From the sequence record PV357172.2: 64,000 nt of DNA; one strand, 5' to 3'. Source of the stretch: a phage. Below the pieces are notes generated by a model, which was given only the letters and a program-made list of their open reading frames with translations, searched no databases and was not told the DNA's origin. This document shows, in pieces, positions 15,924 to 59,466 of the stretch. Both the position numbers and the translations under genes were made by a program. Every line of letters starts with the position of its first letter. Position 1 is the first letter of the stretch.

Positions 15924-16062
15924 CTTTACCTCCAATACATATATTATTACATAATCCACCCAATTTGTCAATGACAATTTATTCATACTGTCAATTAACT
16001 GGAAAGATTATATAATAATCCGAGCCAAAATGACTCGGTAGTCAGAGTTCAGCTAATAAAAA

Positions 16063-16455
16063 TCATTCATCATTCAGACCTGGAACATAGATCCCAACAT
16101 GGTTTAACTGTTCTTTAGCTTCTTTGAGAATATCTGGAGTGTACTCCCAAATATCATCTTCCACCTGTAAAAGATGGGGCGAACAACCATCATCAGGCAT
16201 ACGACATATAGCCAAACCACGTGGATGGAACAAAGAGAAATTTAGGGCAACAATTAAACCCATAGCAGACAACTCATTCCAATCCAATTCCCATTCCCTA
16301 GCGTAGCCTGATAGGAAAACACCAATACAGGGATCGTCTATTTGCTGCTCCGGAAAAGTGAAGGAGGCTTGTCTTACCCCCAACCAACGTTGTAGCAGCT
16401 TCTCCGCACGCTTCACCAAACTAGGATCAATCTGACGCCAATATACTTGTTCCAT
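16063..16455 (-). CDS. hypothetical protein, tandem paralog A (130 aa)
   Basis: Shares PCIG...ELD...MGL..ALN..LF.P motifs with adjacent ORF. Confidence 0.5.
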   Translation of the reverse strand: MEQVYWRQIDPSLVKRAEKLLQRWLGVRQASFTFPEQQIDDPCIGVFLSGYAREWELDWNELSAMGLIVALNFSLFHPRGLAICRMPDDGCSPHLLQVEDDIWEYTPDILKEAKEQLNHVGIYVPGLNDE

Positions 16456-16464
16456 TCTGCCTCC

Positions 16465-16893
16465 TTAAGCAGTTAAATCTGGGATCATATACCCGAAACG
16501 TCGAAGTTTCTGAATCCCCTCATTTACTTCTTCCGGTGAATAAGACCAACCATAACGTTCATTAACCTGAAAACCAGGAGATTCACTAGTTTTATAGTTA
16601 ACAACTAGGCGATGCTTAGCAGGCATAAACAGCTTATAATTTAACGCAAAAACTAAGCCCATTTCATCTAACTCTTTCCAGCCTACAATCTCTTCAAGAC
16701 CCTCCTCTACCTGAACAATTAAACCAATACAGGGGGCCTCATCAATATCATCTTTAAAAGCAAAGGAGATTTCATTATTCTCACACCATATTTTCAAGGA
16801 GTTAATAGCCTCATTATACAGGCTAGCTGGGAGAGTACGCCAAAAGTTAATCAAAATTGGATTAGCTTCTTTAGAGAATACATTATTGAACAT
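16465..16893 (-). CDS. hypothetical protein, tandem paralog B (142 aa)
   Basis: Paralog of 16063-16455. Confidence 0.5.
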   Translation of the reverse strand: MFNNVFSKEANPILINFWRTLPASLYNEAINSLKIWCENNEISFAFKDDIDEAPCIGLIVQVEEGLEEIVGWKELDEMGLVFALNYKLFMPAKHRLVVNYKTSESPGFQVNERYGWSYSPEEVNEGIQKLRRFGYMIPDLTA

Positions 16894-16895
16894 AT

Positions 16896-17402
16896 TTACA
16901 CCTTAAATTGTTGTAAGGATTTACACATTTCAAGATCTGGGCTAAATTCTAGCATATAGCTAACAGCTTTTAAATCTTGAAGATTTATCCCAGTCCTACC
17001 GTTGACTATAACCGTTGGATACTGATACATCATAGCACCCGCATCATCAAGCACACACCAATGTTTGAGCTTATGCTTTTCAACGAAACGAAGAACAGAA
17101 TTACCCCTAGATAATCCACCCCCCGTAAAATCCGTTGTACCAAGAAAACGATCGATAAGACCTAATCCGGTCATAATCTGAACGTTCTCCATCTCATTTC
17201 TAACAGAGAACCAAGATGATACCCCAACAATCATTATCGGAGAAGGACGAATAAAATCCTGAAAAGCCTTGAGAAGCGGTTTGAAAACCCAGTCACTTCC
17301 AAAGAAAATCTTTTCATTATCAGGTGCATGATGGTGGGAGATGCTCGAATTGAGCACCCCATCAATATCTAGAAAAATAATTGGAGTATTACTTATTTCC
17401 AT
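16896..17402 (-). CDS. HAD-superfamily hydrolase-like protein (putative phosphatase/nucleotidase)
   Basis: HAD motif I IIFLDIDGVL near N-terminus. Confidence 0.5.
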   Translation of the reverse strand: MEISNTPIIFLDIDGVLNSSISHHHAPDNEKIFFGSDWVFKPLLKAFQDFIRPSPIMIVGVSSWFSVRNEMENVQIMTGLGLIDRFLGTTDFTGGGLSRGNSVLRFVEKHKLKHWCVLDDAGAMMYQYPTVIVNGRTGINLQDLKAVSYMLEFSPDLEMCKSLQQFKV

Positions 17403-17571
17403 TTTTGTTCCTTTCTAAGAACGTATCATACTCAACCGTATCAACATATATGACGCCATAGTCATCGGATTTATAGTCCATTTCCCATAACTCACATCGA
17501 TAGCACCAACTACCATCTGCCCATACAAATATATCATCGGGATGTGTATATACAGATTTAACTATGGACAT
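17389..17571 (-). CDS. hypothetical protein (60 aa)
   Basis: ORF track; overlaps flanking genes by 14 nt. Confidence 0.35.
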   Translation of the reverse strand: MSIVKSVYTHPDDIFVWADGSWCYRCELWEMDYKSDDYGVIYVDTVEYDTFLERNKNGNK

Positions 17572-18394
17572 ATCTGTTTACCTTGCTTCTCGACACATAA
17601 GGTCTACCCTCTAAATGAGCTTCTACACGAGCAATAAAATCAGGATCACTGAAAGCATCTACCGCACCTTTACTCCAGTAAGGGATACCACGTTCTTCCA
17701 GCTGGTACATCTCACTACGAGTCATACCTTGATAGCCCGGTTCTGCCGCTAGGCCACTATCATAGTAGTTAACAACCATAAGTTTCGCAGCAGTCAAATT
17801 AAGAACAGGAAATAATTCCCAGTAGAAGTTAATTACTTGGTTAGAGCAACCAACCACAATGATCATATCTTGACTGGTAATACCATCAAAAACATTATAC
17901 ATTTCTGCGTATGCAGGAGCATGTTCTCCAAAGAAGATTACATTAGGTTTAACCCATTTATAATCATCTGGATCAATAGAATTATACCCTACATCAATAA
18001 TCCGTTTATTGCTACTATTGTAGCTATCAGCTACAACAACCTCTTTTAAATATCCGTGAATGTGCAGAATGTCACTATGTGGAACACCAGCACGCTCAAT
18101 AAGGTCATCAACGTTGGTAGTCAAGTTTACTACTTGACCTGGGTATTGTTTATACCATTCACCAATACGCAAATGCGCAAGATTGGGTTCAACAGTTTTT
18201 AGCTCTTCACGACGCTTGTTGTAAAACATATGGGTTTTATGATAAAAATTACCACGAAAGGCATGAATATTACATACTTCTTCTAGATCATAATCATCCC
18301 ACAATGCTTTACCACTAGCAGTATCAGTACGGAAGGCTCGTACACCACTTTCAACGCTCAAACCTGCACCGCTAATAATAATTAATCTACGCAC
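17558..18394 (-). CDS. Sir2-family (sirtuin-like) NAD-binding protein
   Basis: Sirtuin motifs ISGAGLSVESGVRAFR, TTNVDDLIERAG, HIHGYL, FFGE, VVGCS; no obvious Cys4 zinc ribbon. Confidence 0.65.
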   Translation of the reverse strand: MRRLIIISGAGLSVESGVRAFRTDTASGKALWDDYDLEEVCNIHAFRGNFYHKTHMFYNKRREELKTVEPNLAHLRIGEWYKQYPGQVVNLTTNVDDLIERAGVPHSDILHIHGYLKEVVVADSYNSSNKRIIDVGYNSIDPDDYKWVKPNVIFFGEHAPAYAEMYNVFDGITSQDMIIVVGCSNQVINFYWELFPVLNLTAAKLMVVNYYDSGLAAEPGYQGMTRSEMYQLEERGIPYWSKGAVDAFSDPDFIARVEAHLEGRPYVSRSKVNRYVHS

Positions 18395-18588
18395 TATACG
18401 ATTCCTCGCTTAAATCCTTCGATAATATTTCGGAGTAAAATTGCTTCCTCCGGGCGTACCTTTTCTTGCTTAATAAGCATATCCAATCCAGCAATACAAC
18501 TAGTTACACCAGCATTATAACCAGAGTTCCATTGCTCAATGAGCATGTTTTCTAGATTACTTTTTAGATTCTGATTCAAGAAGTCCAT
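18394..18588 (-). CDS. hypothetical protein (64 aa)
   Basis: ORF track. Confidence 0.35.
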   Translation of the reverse strand: MDFLNQNLKSNLENMLIEQWNSGYNAGVTSCIAGLDMLIKQEKVRPEEAILLRNIIEGFKRGIV

Positions 18589-18760
18589 AAAGTCTCTCCT
18601 CTAATTCCATAATACGATTTTCATAAGAGGCACGCAACTTTTCAATTGCCAGCGCACGCACTGTAACCTCATTAGAGTTAATAGCTAATTGGGCCAGATC
18701 TTCTGTTTCCATACGTCCGTTGTAAATTAAGCGATATTTAAGATGTTTTACGTTTTTCAT
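18557..18760 (-). CDS. hypothetical protein (67 aa)
   Basis: ORF track. Confidence 0.35.
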   Translation of the reverse strand: MKNVKHLKYRLIYNGRMETEDLAQLAINSNEVTVRALAIEKLRASYENRIMELEERLYGLLESESKK

Positions 18761-18769
18761 TCTTGTTCC

Positions 18770-19051
18770 TTAGTTCTGTACTGTAAATTCATTCTTATCA
18801 CAGTGAGCGTAATAATACCCATACATGCGATAAATTTTCACAGCCTTAGTAGACCCCTTCGATTCTTCATAATCAATCCAGAGCCACTTGTCTTTACCTA
18901 CATAATGTACCCGAAACTTCTTAACTTTCTTATCATTCCATGTTGCAACAACACGACGATAATCAAATCCACCCAACCAATCTAGAGCCTTACGTTCTTC
19001 ACTAGGCCCTCCAAGATGGGAGACATCTACTTTAGGAAGCAACTCGCTCAT
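18770..19051 (-). CDS. hypothetical protein (93 aa)
   Basis: ORF track; promoter-like module upstream at 19052-19150 on minus strand. Confidence 0.45.
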   Translation of the reverse strand: MSELLPKVDVSHLGGPSEERKALDWLGGFDYRRVVATWNDKKVKKFRVHYVGKDKWLWIDYEESKGSTKAVKIYRMYGYYYAHCDKNEFTVQN

Positions 19052-19150
19052 AGCTTTCTCCTCTCAAATTTATAAATCAATTATACATAAATTTTTGGCT
19101 GAAAGCAAATAAAATAAAAGCCAGGTCGACTAGCAACCTGGCTGATTAGC

Positions 19151-20977
19151 TTACTTAAGATTTAAGTGTTTTACTCTACCAAGTACTTCTTTTTGTTTCC
19201 CAGAATTGAAAGGCCTACTGCCCGGGGATCCCAGGTACCCGCAAACCCTACGTGTAACCTCTATTTCTTCAGATCCACAACTCGGACATACAAACCCACG
19301 TTCAGAGGCAACAGATTCACCCATATACCCACAGTTGAAGCACTCATCAATTGGTATATTAACACCAATATAATGACTACATTCTAGTCCCTTATCTACT
19401 ACGTATTCAAGAGCTTTATGGAACTTTTTCATTTGTGGTAGTTCCACAAACGATATATTACCACCATTAGCTATTTTGGTGAAATGAGCTTCATACTCAA
19501 ATTTAGTATCCGGAGCTACCTTCTCCCTTACGTCCAAATGATGACTATTAGTGAGATAGCCTTTATCTGTTAGCCAAGAATACTCAGGGAACCTACGTTC
19601 CAGTAGTTTATTAAAGCGATTACATAGAGACTCACTAGGAGTAGCATACAAGCTAAACCCAAGATTAGTCTCATTAGCTTTAACTTCGCAACGATTTTTT
19701 AGGTGAGTAAGAACTTCCTCTGTAAATTCAATACAGTCCCTATGAGTCTGCGGTAAACTAAACATTATTTGGCACATCTCATAGACCCCAATATACCCAA
19801 GAGATACAGAAGATCTACCCTCAAAAATTGGCCATACATACTCTTCCCTATCTAAACGCACACCAAAACCACCGTGCATATAAAGAATAGGGGCTTGTTT
19901 AGCCTTCACTTTCTTAAGTCTATCCAAGAAAAAATCATGAGCTTCAAAAGCCTCATCCACATATTTGTCCAGAATATCCCAGAAATCTTCAAAAACCCCA
20001 TCTGCCTCAGCAGCAACCATAGGTAGATTAATAGACACTACACCTAAATTATTGCGCCCTGCAATTTCTCCGGAGGGGATAGCAGATAAAAAGCTACGAC
20101 AACCCATAGGGGCTTTAAAATCACCAGTAACAGCTATAACTTTCTCATAGCTTAAATAGTCTGGGTACATACGGGTAGCAGAACACTCAAGTGCTAGCTG
20201 TTTTATATCATAGTTAGGATCGCCTGGATTTTTATTTAACCCTTCTTTAACTGAGAATACTAGTTTAGGGAAGATAGGGGTTGACTCGGCAGCACCTAAA
20301 CCTTTAATACGATTTTGGAGGATGGCTTTCTGAATCATCCTTTCCTCCCACTCCTGACCTAATCCAAAGCCAAGCGTAACAAAAGGGGTCTGCCCGTTAG
20401 AGTTAAATAATGAATTAGTTTCATACTCTAGAGCTTGGAATGCATCATAACACTCTTTTTCAGTAAGCTCAGTAGCATACACAGCAGCTTTTCTTTCATC
20501 CTTGAGCCAACGTAGCCCACGACCCAGATGTTTATTGTAAGACTTTCTGACATACGGGGCTAGAACCTCGTCGATACGATCAATAGAGGTACCACCATAC
20601 TGAGCACCAGATACTTGGGCAATAATCTGAGCAGTGATTGCACATGCAGTAGTTATGGATTTAGGAGTTTCAATATTTGCATTACCGATTTTAGTACCAT
20701 TCTTCAGCATGCCCCCCAGATCTACTAAACAACAGTTGGTGTACCCTTGTGCTCTGTAGTCCATGTCATGAATGTGTATTTTACCTAGATTATGCGCGTC
20801 TAACAGGTGTTTAGGTAATTCTTGCGATACTAAATACTTGTTAATTTCCCCAGCTAATAAGTCCCTTTGAGTATGGAACATCTCACTAGGCTTATTAGCA
20901 TTATTATGTTGTAAGTCTTTATCCGCAGTTAGAGTGAGCAGACCTTTGCAATTTTCAATTAATTCATTCTCTGTCAT
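19151..20977 (-). CDS. nrdD: anaerobic ribonucleoside-triphosphate reductase (class III)
   Basis: 608-aa ORF; C-terminal glycyl radical motif RVCGYLGS; Cys cluster CFNCGY...CPSCG. Confidence 0.85.
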   Translation of the reverse strand: MTENELIENCKGLLTLTADKDLQHNNANKPSEMFHTQRDLLAGEINKYLVSQELPKHLLDAHNLGKIHIHDMDYRAQGYTNCCLVDLGGMLKNGTKIGNANIETPKSITTACAITAQIIAQVSGAQYGGTSIDRIDEVLAPYVRKSYNKHLGRGLRWLKDERKAAVYATELTEKECYDAFQALEYETNSLFNSNGQTPFVTLGFGLGQEWEERMIQKAILQNRIKGLGAAESTPIFPKLVFSVKEGLNKNPGDPNYDIKQLALECSATRMYPDYLSYEKVIAVTGDFKAPMGCRSFLSAIPSGEIAGRNNLGVVSINLPMVAAEADGVFEDFWDILDKYVDEAFEAHDFFLDRLKKVKAKQAPILYMHGGFGVRLDREEYVWPIFEGRSSVSLGYIGVYEMCQIMFSLPQTHRDCIEFTEEVLTHLKNRCEVKANETNLGFSLYATPSESLCNRFNKLLERRFPEYSWLTDKGYLTNSHHLDVREKVAPDTKFEYEAHFTKIANGGNISFVELPQMKKFHKALEYVVDKGLECSHYIGVNIPIDECFNCGYMGESVASERGFVCPSCGSEEIEVTRRVCGYLGSPGSRPFNSGKQKEVLGRVKHLNLK

Positions 20978-21635
20978 TGATTATTTCCTCGATAAACCTT
21001 GCTACTATTTCTGGCTCAATACTAAAAAATTCTGTAGCACCATCAAAATCTTTGTACTGACAATTATATTCCTTAAACTGTAAATGGGCCTCTCTTTCAA
21101 TACGCATAGCTTTTGATCTATCTGAAAAGCTATATTCCTTAAATATTTTTAAATCATGTATGTTAGAAGAAGTTTTAATATCTCTGAGTCTATCTTTAGT
21201 TCTGCTAGACACCCCTATTTTGGTTCCCACACTACTTATTAAAATATATACGTTAGTAGGATAATTATCCTTCTCTAATAAACATATAGGACAACCAGAA
21301 TTATGATTTCTAACACTATCAAGTGTAGACTCCCATCTATGATTATTCTCACAGCTGAACATAATTTTACTCTTAGAATTGATGTATTTACCTTCCATCT
21401 TTATTCCACGAGCAGCTAAGGATTCATTTACCTCTTTAAGATCTAAAGTACGACTAGCACAATAAGGGCAACCTCTCCCACCTTTTACATTATCTACTCT
21501 AGCCTCCCAGATATGTCCATTAGAGCACTTAAATACAGCATTGGATTTAGCTGATATATACGTGCTTAGCATAATTATTCCTCTGGGAGCAAGTGTTAAG
21601 TTCACATCTTCTGTAGTTATTTTCTTTCTTACCAT
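20964..21635 (-). CDS. T5orf172/GIY-YIG-like domain protein with tandem zinc-ribbon repeats
   Basis: Two N-terminal repeats (FKCSNGHIWEARVDNVKGGRGCPYC / FSCENNHRWESTLDSVRNHNSGCPIC); C-terminal VYILISSVGTKIGVS...R...E GIY-YIG-like core. Confidence 0.5.
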   Translation of the reverse strand: MVRKKITTEDVNLTLAPRGIIMLSTYISAKSNAVFKCSNGHIWEARVDNVKGGRGCPYCASRTLDLKEVNESLAARGIKMEGKYINSKSKIMFSCENNHRWESTLDSVRNHNSGCPICLLEKDNYPTNVYILISSVGTKIGVSSRTKDRLRDIKTSSNIHDLKIFKEYSFSDRSKAMRIEREAHLQFKEYNCQYKDFDGATEFFSIEPEIVARFIEEIINDRE

Positions 21636-33252: not shown

Positions 33253-34074
33253 ATGGGTAAATTACAAAAACAAATACTACCACATATAGATTATATTCGA
33301 GAAATTATAGAGTATAATCCTTATACTGGTAAATTATTTTATAAGCCTAATAAATACAAGAATAAAACTTGGCACACCCTATATGCTGGGAGAGAAATAT
33401 GTAGTAAGAACTCTGATGGGTATATCAGAGTTAGTTTGCTCTTAGATAATAAACCCACAATTATTTATGGACACCGAATAGCGTGGTTGCTCCATTATGG
33501 TGAAGAGCCTCCTTATATGATCGACCATATAAATACCATACCGTGGGATAACAGAATTGTTAATCTAAGAGAGACAAATTTTAAGTTAAATAGGATTAAT
33601 ACTAATAAAACCGTAGGTGTAGAACTCCTCCCCGAGGGTTTTGTGTATAGCATTACATTAGGTGGAAAGTTTTTCGTATCTCCTGGCTTCACCACTTTCG
33701 AACAAGCTAAAGGGGAAAGAGAAAAACTAGTAAATGGTTTATGTAATGCAGAAATTGGGAAGCAGACCAATATTCTAATAGACGATGTTAGAGATCTACC
33801 TGAAATGTCCATTATTTGTCGTACAGTTATAGGTGCGCTGGAACTATCAGATATGTTTAGTTTTACTGGTTCCTACCTATTTATGGACTCAGATCTAGGA
33901 GACCCAGAAGTACAAGGAAAAGACTTATTAGATTATATACTCTTTTTAGGTCAAAGACCTTTGAAAGTAGTTCTAGTAACATCCAACCCTGTTGACGCAG
34001 AGTACATGAGAGGTACTCTTACGTCTTATGGTTATCGAGAAAATCCCAATAGGTTAGAATATGACCTATTTTAA
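33253..34074 (+). CDS. HNH endonuclease with C-terminal extension
   Basis: HNH motif YGHRIAWLLHYGEEPPYMIDHINTIPWDNRIVNL in N-terminal half. Confidence 0.65.
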   Translation: MGKLQKQILPHIDYIREIIEYNPYTGKLFYKPNKYKNKTWHTLYAGREICSKNSDGYIRVSLLLDNKPTIIYGHRIAWLLHYGEEPPYMIDHINTIPWDNRIVNLRETNFKLNRINTNKTVGVELLPEGFVYSITLGGKFFVSPGFTTFEQAKGEREKLVNGLCNAEIGKQTNILIDDVRDLPEMSIICRTVIGALELSDMFSFTGSYLFMDSDLGDPEVQGKDLLDYILFLGQRPLKVVLVTSNPVDAEYMRGTLTSYGYRENPNRLEYDLF

Positions 34075-36161: not shown

Positions 36162-37109
36162 ATGTTTAATACTAAAAATATGAAAGAACTGACTTCTGAG
36201 CAGAAAGTAATTCGTACTATTAAACGTTGGGGTATTGGTGCTGTAGTTGGTTTAGCAGGTTTAATCCTAGCTTTTAATTCATATACTGTTGTTCAAGACG
36301 GTACTGTTAAAACCCAGACTTTCCTGGGTAAAGTTGACCCTAGCCCAGTATTACCCGGCTTTCATATTGTAAATCCTTTTGCTTCTTTCGATACTTTTAG
36401 TACTAAAGATATTGCCCTAAAATTAGATAAACTTCAGGTTCCTAGCCAGGATAAGTTTAAATCCACTGTTGACCTGACTGTTATGTTGCAGTTTGATGGT
36501 TCTAAGGCACCAATTAACCGTATTAACGCAGGTACTCAGGATCAGGCGTTAGACAAGTATGTAACTGAAAAATTACTGTCTACTATTCGTGAGTTTGGTA
36601 AGTCTGTACCTAAAGCACAAGATTTGTTTGATGCTAAAATTCAGGCTCAATTGCAAACTGCAATTCAACAGGAAGTTGAAGAGTATGCACGCCCATATGG
36701 TTACACAGTTAAGCAGGTATTCCTTCAGGATATTACTTTGCCACCGGTAATCATGGAACAGGTACAGAATACCAAAGTTCGTGAAGAGCAAGTTAATGCT
36801 GCGAAAGCTGAACTGGCCCGCGTTGAACAAGAAGCGCAGCAAAAGGTTAAACAAGCAGAAGCAGACCGTGAAGCTCGCAACAACCAAGCTATTGCTAATG
36901 AACGTGACGCAGATGCTAAACTGTACGCAGCTAAGAAAGAAGCTGAAGCTAACGCCGCATTGCAACGTACCATTACTCCTGAGATGATTCGCTGGAAGCA
37001 ACTGGAAGTTGAAATGCTTCGTGCTGAAAAATACCAAGGTGGTGTACCGCAAACAGTAGTGGGAACTGGTTACGATGGCCAGATGATCATGGATATGCGT
37101 AATAAGTAA
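36162..37109 (+). CDS. SPFH/band-7 (prohibitin/HflK-like) membrane protein
   Basis: N-terminal TM segment, SPFH-like core, Ala/Glu/Gln-rich coiled-coil tail. Confidence 0.55.
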   Translation: MFNTKNMKELTSEQKVIRTIKRWGIGAVVGLAGLILAFNSYTVVQDGTVKTQTFLGKVDPSPVLPGFHIVNPFASFDTFSTKDIALKLDKLQVPSQDKFKSTVDLTVMLQFDGSKAPINRINAGTQDQALDKYVTEKLLSTIREFGKSVPKAQDLFDAKIQAQLQTAIQQEVEEYARPYGYTVKQVFLQDITLPPVIMEQVQNTKVREEQVNAAKAELARVEQEAQQKVKQAEADREARNNQAIANERDADAKLYAAKKEAEANAALQRTITPEMIRWKQLEVEMLRAEKYQGGVPQTVVGTGYDGQMIMDMRNK

Positions 37110-37299: not shown

Positions 37300-37350
37300 A
37301 GTTAAAAAATTCGATTGCTTGAATGCTAAATTCTCTGTATAATATATTTA
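37300..37350 (+). promoter_or_regulatory. sigma70-like strong early promoter
   Basis: TTGCTT at 37315-37320, 17-nt spacer, TGTATAAT ending at 37343. Confidence 0.6.
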
Positions 37351-37373
37351 TAAATTTGAGAGAGGAATCAAAT

Positions 37374-38429
37374 ATGATTAAGACTGGTCTAGTAATTGGT
37401 AAGTTCGCACCATTAACGCGTGGTCATATTAACCTAATAAACACAGCAGCAACTATGTGTGAACGAGTTATTGTTGTAGTTAGTCATGATAATCGTTGGC
37501 TGGATAAGCAGAACACACGTGATCAGGAAGTATTACAGTTAAAGAATCGACTTCGTTGGTTAGAACAAACTTACGCGGATATTGAGCACATTTCGGTAGA
37601 GTACATTATTGAAGATGATATTCCTGAATATCCGAATGGTTGGCCGGAATATGCTAGAATCCTTAATGAAAATTACGGACATTTGCCTGAGATCACCGTT
37701 TTCTCTAGCGAACTAGACTATGATGCAGAATATAAGAAATATCTGCCGAAGTTTGGTCATTATATTGTAGATTCTGATCGGACTCGTGTTCCAATCTCAG
37801 CTACAATGATTCGTAATGATCTTATGAAGTATTGGGAGTTTCTTCCTAGCTTAGTTCGTAAAGATTACGTGCGTAAGGTTGTAATCATTGGGACTGAAAG
37901 CTCGGGAAAGACTACTTTAACAAAATACCTTGCGAAGCTATACAACACTTCGTGGGTAGAAGAATATGGCCGAACGTATTGTGAAGTTGATCTAGTTGGT
38001 AACGAAAATCTACTTACCAGTGAAGATTACAGTAAAATTGCGTTCAGACACAAAGAGCTAGAGTTTGAAGCAGAACGTACTGCAAATAAGATCATGTTTG
38101 TGGATACAAATGCTTTTATTACTGAGTTCTACCACAGACTTTATGAACATAGTAAGAACCCTGTGGTTACAGCAATTGCAAAAGTAGAACATTACGATTT
38201 AGTAATTGTTCTAGCGCCTACTGTCAAGTGGGTAGATGATGATTTACGTATTAACTCCGATCGTTCAATTACTTCTGAACTGTTCGAGCAGATGAAGAAA
38301 GAATTTCCAAATCAGTTCCCTGAAGGGCGTACTGTTTACATCGACTCTCCGGACTACAAAGTTCGTATGGACGAAGCAGTAAACGCAGTAGACTGGCTGA
38401 TTCATCACTTTAACGTTGGAGAGTTTTAA
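37374..38429 (+). CDS. NadR-like bifunctional NMN adenylyltransferase / ribosylnicotinamide kinase
   Basis: N-terminal nucleotidyltransferase motif GKFAPLTRGHINLI; C-terminal P-loop IIGTESSGKTTL. Confidence 0.65.
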   Translation: MIKTGLVIGKFAPLTRGHINLINTAATMCERVIVVVSHDNRWLDKQNTRDQEVLQLKNRLRWLEQTYADIEHISVEYIIEDDIPEYPNGWPEYARILNENYGHLPEITVFSSELDYDAEYKKYLPKFGHYIVDSDRTRVPISATMIRNDLMKYWEFLPSLVRKDYVRKVVIIGTESSGKTTLTKYLAKLYNTSWVEEYGRTYCEVDLVGNENLLTSEDYSKIAFRHKELEFEAERTANKIMFVDTNAFITEFYHRLYEHSKNPVVTAIAKVEHYDLVIVLAPTVKWVDDDLRINSDRSITSELFEQMKKEFPNQFPEGRTVYIDSPDYKVRMDEAVNAVDWLIHHFNVGEF

Positions 38430-38430
38430 T

Positions 38431-39108
38431 ATGACTAACTATCTCGTAAATGACTTTAAAAACTGGAAACCTCTGGAATATCTGTGGCTGCTCATAGCGG
38501 TTGTCTTCATTAGTTTAGCAAACTATAATGGTACAGCTCTAGATTGGGCTACTGCAATAACCAATGTGGTTTGTGTTATTCTGGTTGCAAAAGGACGTGT
38601 TTCCAACTATATTTGGGGCTTAGTGGGTGTTCTTACATATGGTATTACAGCTTTAAACGCAGATCTTTATGGTAACGCTGCACTAAACCTGCTATACTAC
38701 GTTCCTATGCAGTTTTATGGAATGTACTTATGGCATAAAAATAAACCAAGTAATCTGCCAGACGTTCCAACTAAGGTTCTGACTAAAGCTCAGGCTTTAT
38801 TAACTCTTGGGATTCTAGCAGTAGCTACTCTAGGCTATGGCAGCTTCCTCGCTACCACAGCAGATCCGTTCCCAATGCTCGATGCATTTACTGCGGTTGG
38901 TAGTGTAATTGCTATGTGGCTTATGGTCAAGCAGTATGCTGAACAATGGCTAATCTGGATTGCCATTAATATTGGTACTGTATACATTTGGTTTGTAACT
39001 GCTCAGTCTACAGGTGCTTCTTATGCAATCCTAGCAATGTGGCTGGTATTCTTTGGTAACTCTGTACTTGGAGCCTATAAAGGGTACTTTGTACGCGTTA
39101 ACAAATAA
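38431..39108 (+). CDS. PnuC-like nicotinamide riboside transporter
   Basis: Multi-TM protein immediately downstream of NadR-like gene; ATG at 38431 after GGAGAG. Confidence 0.55.
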   Translation: MTNYLVNDFKNWKPLEYLWLLIAVVFISLANYNGTALDWATAITNVVCVILVAKGRVSNYIWGLVGVLTYGITALNADLYGNAALNLLYYVPMQFYGMYLWHKNKPSNLPDVPTKVLTKAQALLTLGILAVATLGYGSFLATTADPFPMLDAFTAVGSVIAMWLMVKQYAEQWLIWIAINIGTVYIWFVTAQSTGASYAILAMWLVFFGNSVLGAYKGYFVRVNK

Positions 39109-58939: not shown

Positions 58940-59466
58940 CACAAGAAAGATTAAAAGAGTTATTTGAATACCGCCCGGAAACGGGCGAGTTTATAAGGAA
59001 AGTCAGTAGAGGACGAGGTAAAGCAGGTAGTATTGCTGGTAGTCCTGATAGGGATGGTTATATATTTATTGGGATAAATAGAAAAAGATATGCAGCCCAT
59101 AGGTTAGCCTTTTTGTACATGGAGGGGTATATTCCAAATCTAGTACACCACTTAAATAATATAAGAAAAGATAATAGATGGTGTAATTTAAAAGATTGTA
59201 CGTCCCAAGAAAATAATCGTAGCAAAATCGCTCAATCTAATTCGGGGTACTTAGGAGTTACCTGGAAAAAGATCGACAACAATGGAGAGTCCAGGCCAGA
59301 AGCGCCGAAAGCATTACAGTACACGGAGGCTATTTTAGGTATCTAGATTTAGAGTTGGCAGTTCAAAGAGCTAATGAACTACGTTTAGAACTACATGGGC
59401 CTAATGCTGTTATAGAAACTTTTGATCATACAAAACCCTTACCTACTTTAGAGGACTTAAATAAAT
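58933..59466 (+). pseudogene. HNH homing endonuclease, frameshifted
   Basis: Residues 1-113 match the HNH paralogs in one frame; the conserved C-terminus GGYF..LELAVQ.ANELRL.LHG.NAVIE.F..TKPLPTLEDLNK continues in a different frame from about 59290 to 59463. Confidence 0.55.

What the first reader, a model, noticed from the sequence alone, without database searches (positions are those of the whole stretch)
17558..18394. Sir2-like protein lacking an obvious zinc ribbon in the replication module
Core sirtuin motifs are present (GAGxS..SG..FR, NVDxL..RAG, HG, FGE, VVGxS) but no Cys4 zinc-binding module is evident. In bacterial immunity, Sir2 domains without the zinc ribbon often act as NADases, so in a phage this could be a deacylase, an ADP-ribosyltransferase or an NAD-consuming effector. 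Its coexistence with the NAD salvage genes is notable.
Basis: partly seen in the sequence, partly recalled or inferred. Interest (0 to 1): 0.6.

Follow-up and report, generated by a model that had tools for sequence, protein, structure and literature searches.

The report
Zinc-free phage sirtuin, already catalogued
This is the well-known but never-assayed Sir2-like gene of T5-type phages: an intact CobB-like NAD-using enzyme that has lost its zinc-binding cysteines, a loss already described in the literature, and its real substrate is still unknown.

Summary
ORF 17558-18394 (-) encodes a 278-aa protein matching Pfam SIR2 end to end (E 8e-25) and the phage family phrog_2162 (E 5e-121). There is no Cys or His where the zinc ribbon should be.

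The window is a T5-like phage, and this gene is T5.102, annotated as Sir2 since the T5 genome was deposited. At least 1000 phage records carry a homologue.

By sequence and fold it is a canonical class III (CobB/SIRT5-like) sirtuin, not a defence-type SIR2 NADase:
- There is no PADLOC hit.

The zinc-less state is shared by the whole clade. It tracks a Gln-to-Thr change in the TQNxD active-site motif.

Zinc loss and the link to NAD salvage were noted in 2016 for Vibrio phage homologues. A Tpt1-like RNA-repair role was proposed in 2022. I found no biochemical test.

Gene context favours nucleic-acid end repair: a HAD_SAK_2 phosphatase here, and RNA ligase, cREC and a kinase in other phages. That is inference only, and lysine deacylation is a near-equal rival. 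The NadR/PnuC genes (NARP3) lie 19 kb away and occur in fewer phage records than sir2.

The parts
17558..18394 (-). sir2 gene (278 aa, GTG start), orthologue of T5.102. It is a zinc-free, class III-derived phage sirtuin.
   Evidence: ORF. Pfam SIR2 E 8e-25. phrog_2162 E 5e-121. AF2 model pLDDT 86.8 with CobB as best fold match. T5 annotation.
18403..18407 (-). GAGGA ribosome-binding site 8 nt upstream of the GTG start. The start overlaps the upstream stop codon by 1 nt (TAGTG).
   Evidence: Sequence read.
18056..18058 (-). Codon of His113, the catalytic histidine of the HG motif.
   Evidence: Invariant in the clade and aligned to the CobB HG motif.
18107..18121 (-). T92-T93-N94-V95-D96, the nicotinamide-ribose motif. 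Canonical sirtuins have TQNxD; here the Gln is replaced by Thr93.
18212..18223 (-). Y58-N-K-R61, the class III YxxR anion-binding motif. It aligns to the FYNARR segment of CobB.
   Evidence: Alignment to CobB. Invariant in the clade. YR in 37 of 46 Thr-type representatives.
17951..18052 (-). Residues 115-148, the remnant of the zinc ribbon. No Cys or His. Predicted to keep the three-stranded sheet. Carries the clade motifs DVGY and W147.
   Evidence: Strands E114-122, E131-134 and E147-152, with 10-residue block pLDDT means of 88-97 across residues 111-150.
17389..17571 (-). 60-aa ORF between sir2 and the HAD gene (phrog_5116, function unknown). It overlaps both neighbours.
   Evidence: The same arrangement is seen in Salmonella phage gmork.
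16896..17402 (-). HAD_SAK_2 phosphatase (168 aa), orthologue of T5.105. Catalytic D12/D14, S62-S63 and D119-D120 are intact.
   Evidence: Pfam PF18143 E 7e-20. Alignment A2. AF2 pLDDT 94.5.
16465..16893 (-). DUF7415 protein (142 aa, pI 4.7), orthologue of T5.106.
16063..16455 (-). Second DUF7415 paralogue (130 aa, pI 4.6), orthologue of T5.107. Last gene of the operon.
18394..19051 (-). Three small ORFs upstream of sir2 in the same transcription unit: 93 aa, 67 aa and 64 aa. The 64-aa ORF matches phrog_5827, function unknown.
   Evidence: The same three ORFs precede sir2 in gmork.
19119..19143 (-). Terminator-like hairpin after nrdD. It marks the upstream boundary of the sir2 operon.
   Evidence: T5 has an annotated terminator and promoter at the same place.
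16020..16038 (-). Terminator-like hairpin after the second DUF7415 gene. It marks the downstream boundary of the operon.
   Evidence: T5 has an annotated terminator at 58952-58976.

Best explanation
The gene is the T5.102-type phage sirtuin.

Shown by sequence and predicted fold: it is a stand-alone, catalytically intact NAD+-binding sirtuin descended from class III (CobB/SIRT5-like) enzymes. It keeps the following:
- GAGxS and the FR motif.
- The Asn/Asp of the nicotinamide pocket.
- The catalytic His113, plus FGE, GxS and Asn209.
- The class III Tyr58/Arg61 anion-binding pair.

It has lost every zinc ligand while keeping the small beta-sheet module. It has also replaced the ribose-contacting Gln of TQNxD with Thr.

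Inferred chemistry: it performs standard sirtuin catalysis. An oxygen of an anionic group held by Tyr58/Arg61 attacks C1' of NAD+ and nicotinamide leaves. The His113-activated ribose 2'-OH then resolves the ADP-ribosyl intermediate.

Inferred role, from gene context only: the acceptor is most likely a phosphate on a damaged RNA end, i.e. a Tpt1/KptA-like removal of a 2'-phosphate as proposed by Iyer et al. 2022. In that scheme it works in an early operon with the HAD_SAK_2 phosphatase to heal tRNA or mRNA cut by host nucleases. T5-like phages would have to borrow a host ligase for sealing.

I put about 0.9 on the identity and chemistry part and about 0.35-0.4 on the RNA-repair substrate. Lysine deacylation is a near-equal rival.
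For: Identity:
- Pfam SIR2 and phrog_2162.
- CobB, Af1 and SIRT5 are the best sequence and fold matches.
- The motifs are invariant across a clade down to 55% identity.

Departure from canonical enzymes:
- No zinc ligands anywhere in the clade.
- Thr replaces Gln. Among 145 family representatives, Gln goes with >=3 Cys in 77 of 85 and non-Gln with <3 Cys in 42 of 60. Fisher p is 2e-14, uncorrected for phylogeny.
- CobB-type NCBIfam models score far below their cutoffs (99.7 vs 243 bits).

Context:
- Here sir2 shares a terminator-bounded operon with HAD_SAK_2.
- The same pair occurs in reversed order in Erwinia phage KEY, and 2.4 kb apart in a 46%-identical lineage (L063).
- In Raoultella phage Ro1 the tightly packed run is RNA_lig_T4_1, cREC, AAA_33 kinase, SIR2, DNA ligase. 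Six of seven lineages of that synteny group keep the RNA ligase and the kinase.
- A 607-kb megaphage contig with a 35%-identical Sir2 has an RNA_lig_T4_1 gene 1.2 kb upstream.
- In phage DT57C a natural deletion removed sir2 and the HAD gene together.
- The window also encodes a cREC domain.

The published proposal is in PMC9503650, section 3.7.3. Tpt1 and sirtuins both work in two steps, attack on NAD+ C1' followed by ribose 2'-OH transesterification; this comparison is from established knowledge.
Against: - No assay exists.
- Every residue needed for ordinary lysine deacylation is retained.
- I did not pick out any clade-specific conserved basic residue that would suggest RNA binding; this is my reading of alignment A1, not a systematic test.
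- All 28 clade members are acidic (median pI 5.2, net charge -6 to -19).
- By tblastn with the phage Ro1 RNA-ligase and AAA_33 kinase proteins as queries, the 64-kb window shows no homologue of either, so the pathway would be incomplete in T5-like phages.
- The HAD_SAK_2 family is not specific to RNA-repair contexts. In Serratia phage ChuuTotoro and in a JGI contig it is the first gene of a HAD, Prs, NadV (Nampt) run, and in ChuuTotoro the Sir2 slot before the DNA ligase is empty.
- Five lineages (ECO340P2-like) have no recognisable RNA-repair neighbour.
- The RNA-ligase linkage within one synteny group is a single inherited arrangement, not independent evidence.
- The HAD fold search did not discriminate polynucleotide phosphatases from small-molecule phosphatases.
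- The sirtuin substrate tunnel is built for a long lysine side chain (established knowledge).
Confidence: 0.38

Rival explanations
1. Phage CobB analogue. It is an NAD+-dependent protein lysine deacylase, probably a desuccinylase/demalonylase as well as a deacetylase. It would strip acyl groups from host or phage proteins (for example Acs, or transcription, translation or replication factors) to tune metabolism during infection. Zinc loss would be only a structural simplification.
For: - All canonical deacylase residues are conserved, including His113, Asn94, Asp96 and FGE.
- The class III Y58/R61 pair, which in SIRT5 and CobB binds the succinyl carboxylate, is also kept.
- The acidic pI resembles the CobB core.
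- Every characterised His-containing PF02146 member that I know of is a deacylase (prior knowledge).
- This role was proposed for the Vibrio phage homologues (PMC5107563).
Against: - Gln to Thr in TQNxD, loss of zinc, and VYP changed to VIN in the peptide-binding strand.
- Scores are far below all CobB equivalog cutoffs.
- No acyltransferase or metabolic partner is found in any neighbourhood.
- The recurrent neighbours are nucleic-acid end-processing or NAD-salvage genes.
- The host already has CobB.
Confidence: 0.33
2. ADP-ribosyltransferase for host takeover or conflict. The sirtuin would mono-ADP-ribosylate a host protein or nucleic acid, as T4 Alt/ModA/ModB or class M sirtuins do, rather than remove a group.
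For: - T5-like phages have no recognised ART-fold enzyme in this window.
- Some sirtuins ADP-ribosylate, for example SirTM (PMC4518038).
- The active-site Gln-to-Thr change could disfavour the second, deacylation step. This is inference.
- A NADAR gene lies 5-6 kb from sir2 in Ro1-type phages.
Against: - The SirTM hallmarks are absent: it has HG, not QG, and there is no macrodomain neighbour.
- The catalytic His, which drives the second step, is invariant.
Confidence: 0.12
3. NAD-metabolite enzyme working with the HAD phosphatase. Sir2 and HAD_SAK_2 would process NAD+ or an NAD-derived small molecule (an ADPR-phosphate species, or an immune signal) as part of the phage's NAD economy or counter-defence, rather than act on a macromolecule.
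For: - HAD_SAK_2 is operonic with Prs and NadV in Vequintavirinae and with Sir2 in T5-like phages.
- Prs and NadV lie 2.5-5 kb from sir2 in Ro1-type and L010-type phages.
- NARP3 is in the same genome here.
Against: - No sirtuin is known to act on free small-molecule acceptors apart from the disputed CobB/CobT substitution.
- The peptide-cleft elements (FGE, YxxR) are conserved.
- The HAD is a cap-less type, which usually takes large substrates (together with established knowledge).
Confidence: 0.08
4. NADase effector. A zinc-less SIR2 that simply hydrolyses NAD+, as in ThsA, DSR or SIR2-HerA, used for example for superinfection exclusion or host shut-off.
For: The Asn and His needed for NAD+ hydrolysis are present.
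Against: - It is not related to the defence family: no PADLOC hit and no SIR2_2 hit.
- It has no sensor or oligomerisation partner.
- The phage depends on NAD+ for its own NAD-dependent DNA ligase and carries NARP3 to rebuild NAD+ (PMC13464706).
- It is expressed from an early operon of a virulent phage.
Confidence: 0.05

Closest known systems
Phage T5 gene T5.102 / PHROG phrog_2162 ('Sir2, NAD-dependent deacetylase') in Demerecviridae, Vequintavirinae and KVP40-like phages
   Same: It is the same gene. The 2-kb region holding it is 94-98% identical at nucleotide level to many T5-like phages. It has the same position between nrdD and the origin-binding helicase, the same operon, and a full-length match to phrog_2162. 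The protein cluster at 97% identity holds 649 sequences.
   Different: Nothing substantive. The C-terminal tail is 6 residues longer than in T5. The family has never been assayed, as far as the searchable literature shows.
E. coli CobB and other class III sirtuins (Sir2Af1, SIRT5, PfSir2A)
   Different: - No zinc ligands, where CobB has four Cys in the aligned segment.
- Thr instead of Gln in TQNxD.
- Cys41 where CobB has Ala in the aligned VATPEGF loop.
- VIN instead of VYP after GxS.
- Only about 25% identity, and far below NCBIfam CobB cutoffs.
Sir2/CobB of Vibrio phages KVP40, phiSt2 and phiGrn1 (Skliros et al. 2016, PMC5107563)
   Same: It is a homologous phage sirtuin (36-41% identity to Vibrio phage hits). 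The absence of the zinc site, the co-occurrence with phage NAD salvage, and the presence of a homologue in T5 were all reported there.
   Different: That work rests on homology modelling and transcript profiling only. It proposed Acs deacetylation. The NAD salvage there is NadV/NatV rather than NadR/PnuC.
'Distinct clade of viral sirtuins' predicted to act in RNA repair like KptA/Tpt1 (Iyer, Burroughs, Anantharaman, Aravind 2022, PMC9503650)
   Same: The third neighbourhood type they describe (Escherichia phage SP15: sirtuin plus Swiss-army-knife HAD) is the arrangement in this window. I reproduced their type 2 (RNA ligase, cREC, kinase) in phage Ro1.
   Different: It is a prediction only. They do not mention the zinc loss or the Gln-to-Thr change. 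My survey adds that HAD_SAK_2 also sits with Prs and NadV, which weakens the inference for the T5-type context.
Defence-type SIR2 NADases (ThsA, DSR1/2, SIR2-HerA/Nezha, KomC, Avs5, SPARSA)
   Same: They share the Rossmann-type NAD+-binding sirtuin superfamily, the lack of a Cys4 ribbon, and the Asn and His in the active site.
   Different: - Different family: no PADLOC or SIR2_2 match.
- No sensor domain or partner ATPase.
- Encoded by a virulent phage rather than a defence island.
Tpt1/KptA RNA 2'-phosphotransferase
   Same: Possible functional analogue. It is NAD+-dependent and works in two steps (attack on C1'', then ribose 2''-OH transesterification). It occurs in the same kind of gene neighbourhood as RNA ligase, cyclic phosphodiesterase and kinase. 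This rests on established knowledge.
   Different: Unrelated fold (ART superfamily). It has a basic RNA-binding surface and an Arg-His-Arg-Arg tetrad. No homology to this protein. The analogy is untested.
Class M sirtuins (SirTM)
   Same: They are sirtuin-fold enzymes with a non-deacylase (ADP-ribosylating) activity, which shows the fold can change chemistry.
   Different: SirTM has QG in place of HG, keeps the zinc domain, and is always linked to a macrodomain. Here there is HG, no zinc and no macrodomain.

Membership tests
Sirtuin family (Pfam PF02146 SIR2) | Profile match above the curated gathering score over the whole domain | tested here: met
   88.2 bits against a cutoff of 24, E 8.2e-25, model positions 1-178 of 180.
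Sirtuin family (Pfam PF02146 SIR2) | Rossmann domain plus small domain, superposable on solved sirtuins | tested here: met
Sirtuin family (Pfam PF02146 SIR2) | Catalytic and NAD-binding motifs: GAGxS, FR, (T)QNxD, HG, FGE, GxS, Asn | tested here: met
   All are present and invariant in the clade, except that the Gln of TQNxD is Thr93.
Sirtuin family (Pfam PF02146 SIR2) | Cys4 zinc-binding ribbon in the small domain | tested here: not met
   No Cys or His in residues 115-148. Only C41 and C183 in the whole protein. No conserved Cys in this segment in 28 clade members.
Sirtuin family (Pfam PF02146 SIR2) | NAD+-dependent deacylase activity | not testable with these tools
   No biochemical report was found for any phage member.
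Class III sirtuins (CobB/SIRT5 type) | YxxR motif in the acyl pocket | tested here: met
   Y58 and R61 align to the FYNARR segment of CobB and are invariant in the clade. The assignment as CobB Y92/R95 is from memory of the literature.
Class III sirtuins (CobB/SIRT5 type) | Closest relatives among solved sirtuins are class III | tested here: met
Class III sirtuins (CobB/SIRT5 type) | Reaches the NCBIfam CobB equivalog or subfamily cutoffs | tested here: not met
   Best score is 99.7 bits against a cutoff of 243. All seven models score below their cutoffs.
Phage sirtuin clade (phrog_2162 / T5.102) | Full-length match to the family profile | tested here: met
   E 4.6e-121, residues 1-268 on profile positions 10-276 of 277.
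Phage sirtuin clade (phrog_2162 / T5.102) | Conserved position and operon in T5-like genomes (nrdD, small ORFs, sir2, HAD, DUF7415 x2, origin-binding protein) | tested here: met
Defence-type SIR2 NADases (ThsA, DSR, SIR2-HerA, SPARSA, Avs5, KomC) | Match to a defence-system SIR2 profile | tested here: not met
   No PADLOC family at E <= 1. No Pfam family other than PF02146 at E <= 1.
Defence-type SIR2 NADases (ThsA, DSR, SIR2-HerA, SPARSA, Avs5, KomC) | Fusion to, or operon with, a sensor or partner (SLOG, HerA, pAgo, STAND, KomB) | tested here: not met
   It is a 278-aa single domain. The neighbours are small ORFs, a HAD phosphatase and DUF7415.
Defence-type SIR2 NADases (ThsA, DSR, SIR2-HerA, SPARSA, Avs5, KomC) | Structure closer to defence SIR2 than to deacylases | tested here: not met
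Class M sirtuins (SirTM) | QG replaces the catalytic HG | tested here: not met
   H113-G114 is invariant. The definition comes from PMC4518038.
Class M sirtuins (SirTM) | Adjacent or fused macrodomain | tested here: not met
   No macrodomain was found among the four downstream operon genes and one upstream ORF scanned with Pfam, or among the six ORFs scanned with PHROGs. The 67-aa ORF was not scanned.
Tpt1/KptA RNA 2'-phosphotransferase (functional analogy only) | ART-superfamily fold with the Arg-His-Arg-Arg tetrad | tested here: not met
   The protein has a sirtuin fold and no Tpt1/KptA structure appears among the fold matches listed. It is not a member, so only 'works like' is at issue.
Tpt1/KptA RNA 2'-phosphotransferase (functional analogy only) | NAD+-dependent removal of RNA 2'-phosphate | not testable with these tools
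   It is a prediction from gene neighbourhoods only.

The most novel reading that the evidence does not exclude
The zinc-free, Thr-for-Gln sirtuin clade of large virulent phages is not a protein deacylase. Instead it is a new sirtuin chemistry: NAD+-dependent removal of a phosphate from damaged RNA or DNA ends, a non-homologous Tpt1 analogue. It would cooperate with a cap-less HAD phosphatase that is itself wired into phage NAD salvage (HAD, Prs, NadV). Together these would form an NAD-fuelled repair and counter-defence module against host anticodon and HEPN nucleases.
Probability: 0.3. Interest if true: 0.7.

Novelty: already known. Interest (0 to 1): 0.3.

Why it matters
The finding itself adds little. 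The gene has carried a Sir2 annotation since the T5 genome was deposited. Its zinc-less state and its association with NAD salvage were described in 2016. A specific functional hypothesis has been in print since 2022.

What stays open is worthwhile. At least 1000 sequenced phages, including the model phage T5, carry an intact NAD-consuming sirtuin that nobody has assayed.

- If it is a Tpt1-like RNA-repair enzyme, that would be a new reaction for the sirtuin fold and a new phage answer to tRNA-cutting defences.
- If it is a deacylase, it would be a rare case of a phage rewriting the host acylome, and the first natural zinc-free active sirtuin of the canonical family.

Either result is reachable with simple assays, and a natural deletion control already exists (DT57C against DT571/2).

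Tried and rejected
2. SirTM reading. Rejected: HG is present and there is no macrodomain.
3. Search of the window for an RNA ligase, an AAA_33 kinase or a Ro1-type cREC by tblastn. Nothing found, so a complete RNA-repair pathway could not be shown for this phage.
4. HAD_SAK_2 and DUF7415 against PDB sequences. No meaningful hit.
5. AF2 model of the HAD (pLDDT 94.5) against PDB by Foldseek. Only weak, non-discriminating hits to cap-less HAD phosphatases (MDP-1, KdsC, AQ2171 at E 0.006-0.012; PNKP at E 0.14-0.4). This could not separate a polynucleotide phosphatase from a small-molecule phosphatase.
6. The AFDB50 fold library was unavailable.
7. I tried to place the nearest zinc-containing relatives (e.g. 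P0139) in cultured phages. The best phage hits are just the zinc-less sirtuins at <50% identity, so their origin stays unknown.
8. Literature searches for any biochemical or genetic test of a phage-encoded canonical sirtuin found none.
9. A strict functional coupling of sir2 to NARP3 is rejected. The genes are 19 kb apart on opposite strands, the NARP3 region is in 266 phage records against 446 for the sir2 region, and JLBYU40 has sir2 without NARP3 at the syntenic site.
10. The Gln/Cys co-variation test is not corrected for phylogeny. Treat it as descriptive.
Full report
**What the window is.** The 2-kb stretch around the finding is 94-98% identical to many T5-like phages, including Salmonella phage SP01, Escherichia phage JLBYU40 and T5_ev219. 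In all, 446 phage records match it. The gene order is that of the T5 early region: DNA polymerase, primase, helicase, split NAD-dependent DNA ligase, origin-binding protein, the region of interest, nrdD, then the divergently transcribed phoH and nrdAB. The window is therefore a member of the Demerecviridae/Markadamsvirinae.

**Checking the observation.**
- ORF 17558-18394 on the minus strand encodes 278 aa.
- Its GTG start overlaps the stop of the upstream ORF by one base and has a GAGGA site 8 nt upstream. Every homologue starts MRR.
- The protein matches Pfam PF02146 SIR2 over the whole model (E 8e-25, 88 bits against a cutoff of 24). It also matches the phage family phrog_2162 over its whole length (E 5e-121).
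- It has two cysteines in total (C41, C183). There is no Cys or His in residues 115-148, the segment that aligns with the Cys-bearing zinc module of E. coli CobB.

**Which kind of Sir2.**
- Sequence: there is no PADLOC model hit at E <= 1 and no Pfam hit other than PF02146. The best solved relatives are CobB (E 2e-17), Sir2Af1/Af2 and SIRT5.
- Structure: an AlphaFold2 model built on a 28-sequence clade alignment is confident (pLDDT 86.8, pTM 0.85).
- Foldseek ranks E. coli CobB first (TM 0.81-0.84), then Af1, SIRT5, Sir2Tm and SIRT2.

The protein is therefore a canonical, class III-like sirtuin that has lost its zinc ligands. It is not a member of the zinc-less immune SIR2 family. In the model the former zinc module keeps its three strands (E114-122, E131-134, E147-152). 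Ten-residue block pLDDT means run 88-97 across residues 111-150. The ribbon fold seems to persist without metal.

**What is conserved and what is not.** Across 28 clade members at 55-97% identity to the query, the invariant residues include the following:
- GAGxS, F21-R22, W32 and C41.
- Y58 and R61.
- T92-T93-N94-V95-D96.
- H113-G114, K149-P150, F155, E157, G182, S184 and N209.

Y58/R61 align to the FYNARR segment of CobB. This is the class III YxxR pair that binds the carboxylate of succinyl- or malonyl-lysine in SIRT5 and CobB (established knowledge).

Three things depart from canonical sirtuins:
- No zinc ligands anywhere in the clade.
- Thr in place of the Gln of TQNxD.
- VIN(F) in place of the VYP(A) strand after GxS.

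All seven NCBIfam CobB-type models hit, but far below their cutoffs (best 99.7 against 243 bits).

**How wide is the zinc-less state.** A profile of the clade was searched against 1.84 billion representative proteins. It found 5366 relatives at E <= 1e-3 and 105 at E <= 1e-30. I aligned the best 150 to the profile, and 145 could be scored:

| Residue at the TQNxD Gln position | >=3 Cys in the module | <3 Cys in the module |
|---|---|---|
| Gln | 77 | 8 |
| Not Gln (mostly Thr) | 18 | 42 |

Fisher p is 2e-14. This is not corrected for shared ancestry, so it is descriptive only. Twelve of the first 16 scorable top-ranked representatives have Thr, and the other four have Cys, Ser or Ala at that position. 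None of the 16 has three or more Cys in the module. The wider family, zinc-containing members included, shares the VC(N) loop signature with C41. In the alignment C41 falls on the Ala of CobB's VATPEGF loop. My reading is that zinc loss happened inside a distinct subfamily of small sirtuins and went along with a change at the nicotinamide-ribose contact.

**Gene context in the window.** Terminator-like hairpins at 19143-19119 and 16038-16020 bracket one minus-strand unit. T5 has an annotated promoter and terminators at the equivalent places. The unit holds:
- Three small ORFs.
- sir2.
- A 60-aa ORF.
- A 168-aa HAD_SAK_2 phosphatase (PF18143, E 7e-20).
- Two DUF7415 paralogues.

The HAD has an intact DxD nucleophile motif, the SS motif and the DD motif. 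The window also encodes a cREC (cyclic-phosphate-processing receiver) domain, in an ORF that also has an HNH domain, at 33253-34074. By tblastn with the phage Ro1 proteins as queries, the window shows no homologue of the RNA ligase or the AAA_33 kinase.

**Gene context elsewhere.** I collected 62 loci encoding clade members and reduced them to 24 lineages at 80% Sir2 identity.
- T5-like group (7 lineages): HAD_SAK_2 is next to sir2 in 4 and DUF7415 in 6. In Erwinia phage KEY the order is reversed (HAD, a 118-aa ORF, SIR2), so the linkage has survived rearrangement.
- Mydo/rV5-like group (7 lineages): the run is Metallophos ... RNA_lig_T4_1, cREC, AAA_33, SIR2, DNA ligase, with overlapping or abutting genes. 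Six lineages keep the RNA ligase and the kinase, and all seven keep the DNA ligase.
- ECO340P2-like group (5 lineages): the neighbours have no known domains.
- A 607-kb megaphage contig with a 35%-identical Sir2 has an RNA_lig_T4_1 gene 1.2 kb upstream.
- A 46%-identical lineage (L063) has a HAD_SAK_2 gene 2.4 kb downstream.
- Phage DT57C carries a natural deletion. It leaves a 90-aa 'defective' sir2 remnant and removes T5.103 to T5.105 (HAD included), while the DUF7415 genes remain. Shivani lacks a Sir2-like gene (PMC4342426). The gene is therefore dispensable in the laboratory.

**A complication I did not expect.** Homologues of the HAD_SAK_2 protein in Serratia phage ChuuTotoro (Vequintavirinae) and in a 152-kb JGI contig are the first gene of a HAD, Prs, NadV (Nampt) run. 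In ChuuTotoro the HAD and Prs genes overlap by 4 nt, while the JGI contig has a 116-aa ORF between them. In ChuuTotoro the slot before the DNA ligase, where related phages have sir2, is empty. In sir2-bearing relatives, Prs and NadV lie only 2.5-5 kb from sir2. So HAD_SAK_2 is tied to NAD salvage as well as to Sir2. This weakens the argument that a HAD next to Sir2 means RNA repair. A Foldseek search with a confident HAD model (pLDDT 94.5) found only weak matches to cap-less HAD phosphatases, with PNKP no better than the others. It does not settle the HAD's substrate.

**NAD salvage in this window.** ORFs 37323-38429 (cytidylyltransferase-like plus AAA_28, i.e. a NadR without its HTH domain) and 38416-39108 (PnuC) are the two-gene NARP3 pathway. 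NARP3 was shown in August 2026 to import nicotinamide riboside and rebuild NAD+ against Sir2-HerA defence (PMC13464706). They are 19 kb from sir2 on the other strand. The NARP3 region matches 266 phage records, against 446 for the sir2 region. JLBYU40 has sir2 but other genes at the NARP3 site. The coexistence is real but not obligatory.

**What is already known.**
- T5.102 is annotated as a Sir2 'NAD-dependent deacetylase, ADP-ribosylase, transcription regulator' in the T5 record.
- tblastn finds homologues in at least 1000 phage records from Escherichia, Salmonella, Klebsiella, Vibrio, Erwinia and others.
- Skliros et al. 2016 reported that the Sir2/CobB of Vibrio phages phiSt2, phiGrn1 and KVP40 lacks the zinc site. 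They discussed it together with phage NAMPT/NMNAT, proposed Acs deacetylation, and listed T5 as carrying the homologue (PMC5107563).
- Iyer et al. 2022 defined 'a distinct clade' of viral sirtuins and described the SP15-type sirtuin plus Swiss-army-knife HAD neighbourhood. They proposed a KptA-like removal of RNA 2'-phosphates (PMC9503650).
- I found no experimental test.

**How it most likely works.** Shown: it is an intact sirtuin active site on a CobB-like fold without zinc. Inferred: it follows the sirtuin two-step mechanism, with Y58/R61 holding an anionic group.

For the substrate I weigh two readings almost equally.
- The context slightly favours a nucleic-acid end-repair role, Tpt1-like, at about 0.38. 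The support is the RNA ligase, cREC and kinase neighbours in one synteny group and again in a distant megaphage, the HAD in several T5-like lineages, and the loss of sir2 together with the HAD in DT57C.
- The rival is a CobB-like lysine deacylase at about 0.33. All deacylase residues are retained, the protein is acidic (median clade pI 5.2), I did not pick out clade-specific conserved basic residues in the alignment, the window has no detected ligase, and HAD_SAK_2 is also linked to NAD salvage.
- A protein or nucleic-acid ADP-ribosyltransferase (0.12), a small-molecule NAD-metabolite role with the HAD (0.08) and a plain NADase (0.05) follow.

**Verdict.** But it is a long-annotated, widespread phage gene, and its two 'notable' features are already in the literature. 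The analogy to immune SIR2 NADases does not hold. Interest is low to moderate as a finding. The unassayed function remains a fair experimental target.

Noticed in passing
window 37323-39108 (+): A NadR-like bifunctional enzyme (cytidylyltransferase-like plus AAA_28, no HTH domain) overlaps a PnuC transporter gene. This is the NARP3 NAD+-rebuilding pathway published in August 2026 (Bas30_86/87). An SPFH/Band_7 gene (36162-37109) sits immediately upstream. Band_7 genes also lie 2.8-4.7 kb downstream of sir2 in Ro1-type and L010-type phages.
   Followed up: partly
window 16896-17402 (-); T5 record NC_005859 57588-58094 (T5.105): PHROG family phrog_18062 is labelled 'Sir2 (NAD-dependent deacetylase)'. 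It matches the C-terminal half of the HAD_SAK_2 protein (E 6e-58, full profile) and only faintly matches the real Sir2 (E 4e-6). This probably explains why RefSeq annotates T5.105 and its orthologues as a second 'Sir2', the 'Sir2 (x2)' seen in many records. It is very likely an annotation error that keeps propagating.
   Followed up: partly
L067 5001-8217; L068 5001-8569; L069 15889-19105 (Serratia phage ChuuTotoro): HAD_SAK_2 homologues (37-39% identical to the window's) form a run with ribose-phosphate pyrophosphokinase and nicotinamide phosphoribosyltransferase. In ChuuTotoro the HAD and Prs genes overlap by 4 nt. In L068 a 116-aa ORF lies between them. A tRNA array sits next to the ChuuTotoro run. 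In ChuuTotoro the slot before the DNA ligase, where related phages carry sir2, holds a 99-aa ORF instead. This suggests the 'RNA repair' HAD may have an NAD-metabolism role.
   Followed up: partly
L008 2480-2752 (Escherichia phage DT57C): A natural deletion leaves a 90-aa 'defective' sir2 remnant and removes T5.103 to T5.105 (HAD included), while both DUF7415 genes stay. The sister phage DT571/2 has the full gene. This is a ready-made genetic control, and it shows the pair is dispensable.
   Followed up: yes
window 16063-16893 (-): Two tandem, acidic (pI 4.6-4.7) DUF7415 paralogues end the sir2 operon. DUF7415 is adjacent to sir2 in 6 of 7 T5-like lineages, including one (Slocum-like, L009) that has no HAD. 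There is no PDB relative by sequence. Function is unknown.
   Followed up: partly
window 33253-34074 (+): A single 273-aa ORF combines an HNH_3 endonuclease domain (residues 73-107) with a cREC cyclic-phosphate-processing receiver domain (173-257). It may be a homing endonuclease fused in frame to, or read through into, a cREC gene. JLBYU40 has a 104-aa hypothetical gene at about this place.
   Followed up: no
L065 3582-6708 (607-kb IMG/VR contig): In a megaphage, an RNA_lig_T4_1 gene, an arginase-family gene and a 109-aa ORF precede a distant (35% identical) member of the sirtuin clade.
   Followed up: partly
L064 6001-7198 (279-kb IMG/VR contig): A 37%-identical Sir2 homologue is followed directly by a nucleoside 2-deoxyribosyltransferase-like (PF15891) gene.
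   Followed up: no
L004 1940-2215 (Escherichia phage ECO340P2): An Acb2/Tad1-type anti-CBASS/anti-Thoeris sponge domain gene lies 4 kb upstream of sir2, in a lineage whose sir2 neighbours are otherwise unannotated.
   Followed up: no
family-wide (proteins P0121-P0270): Among the 145 scorable relatives, Gln in TQNxD goes with an intact Cys-rich zinc module and Thr (or another non-Gln residue) with its loss (77/8 against 18/42). Eleven Thr-type proteins still have >=3 Cys, so the Gln-to-Thr change may have preceded zinc loss. This is not corrected for phylogeny.
   Followed up: partly
window 20964-21635 (-): A 223-aa ORF overlaps the end of nrdD. It has two CPxC-type cysteine pairs and a C-terminal region that looks like a homing-endonuclease or T5orf172-type domain. 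It was not examined.
   Followed up: no
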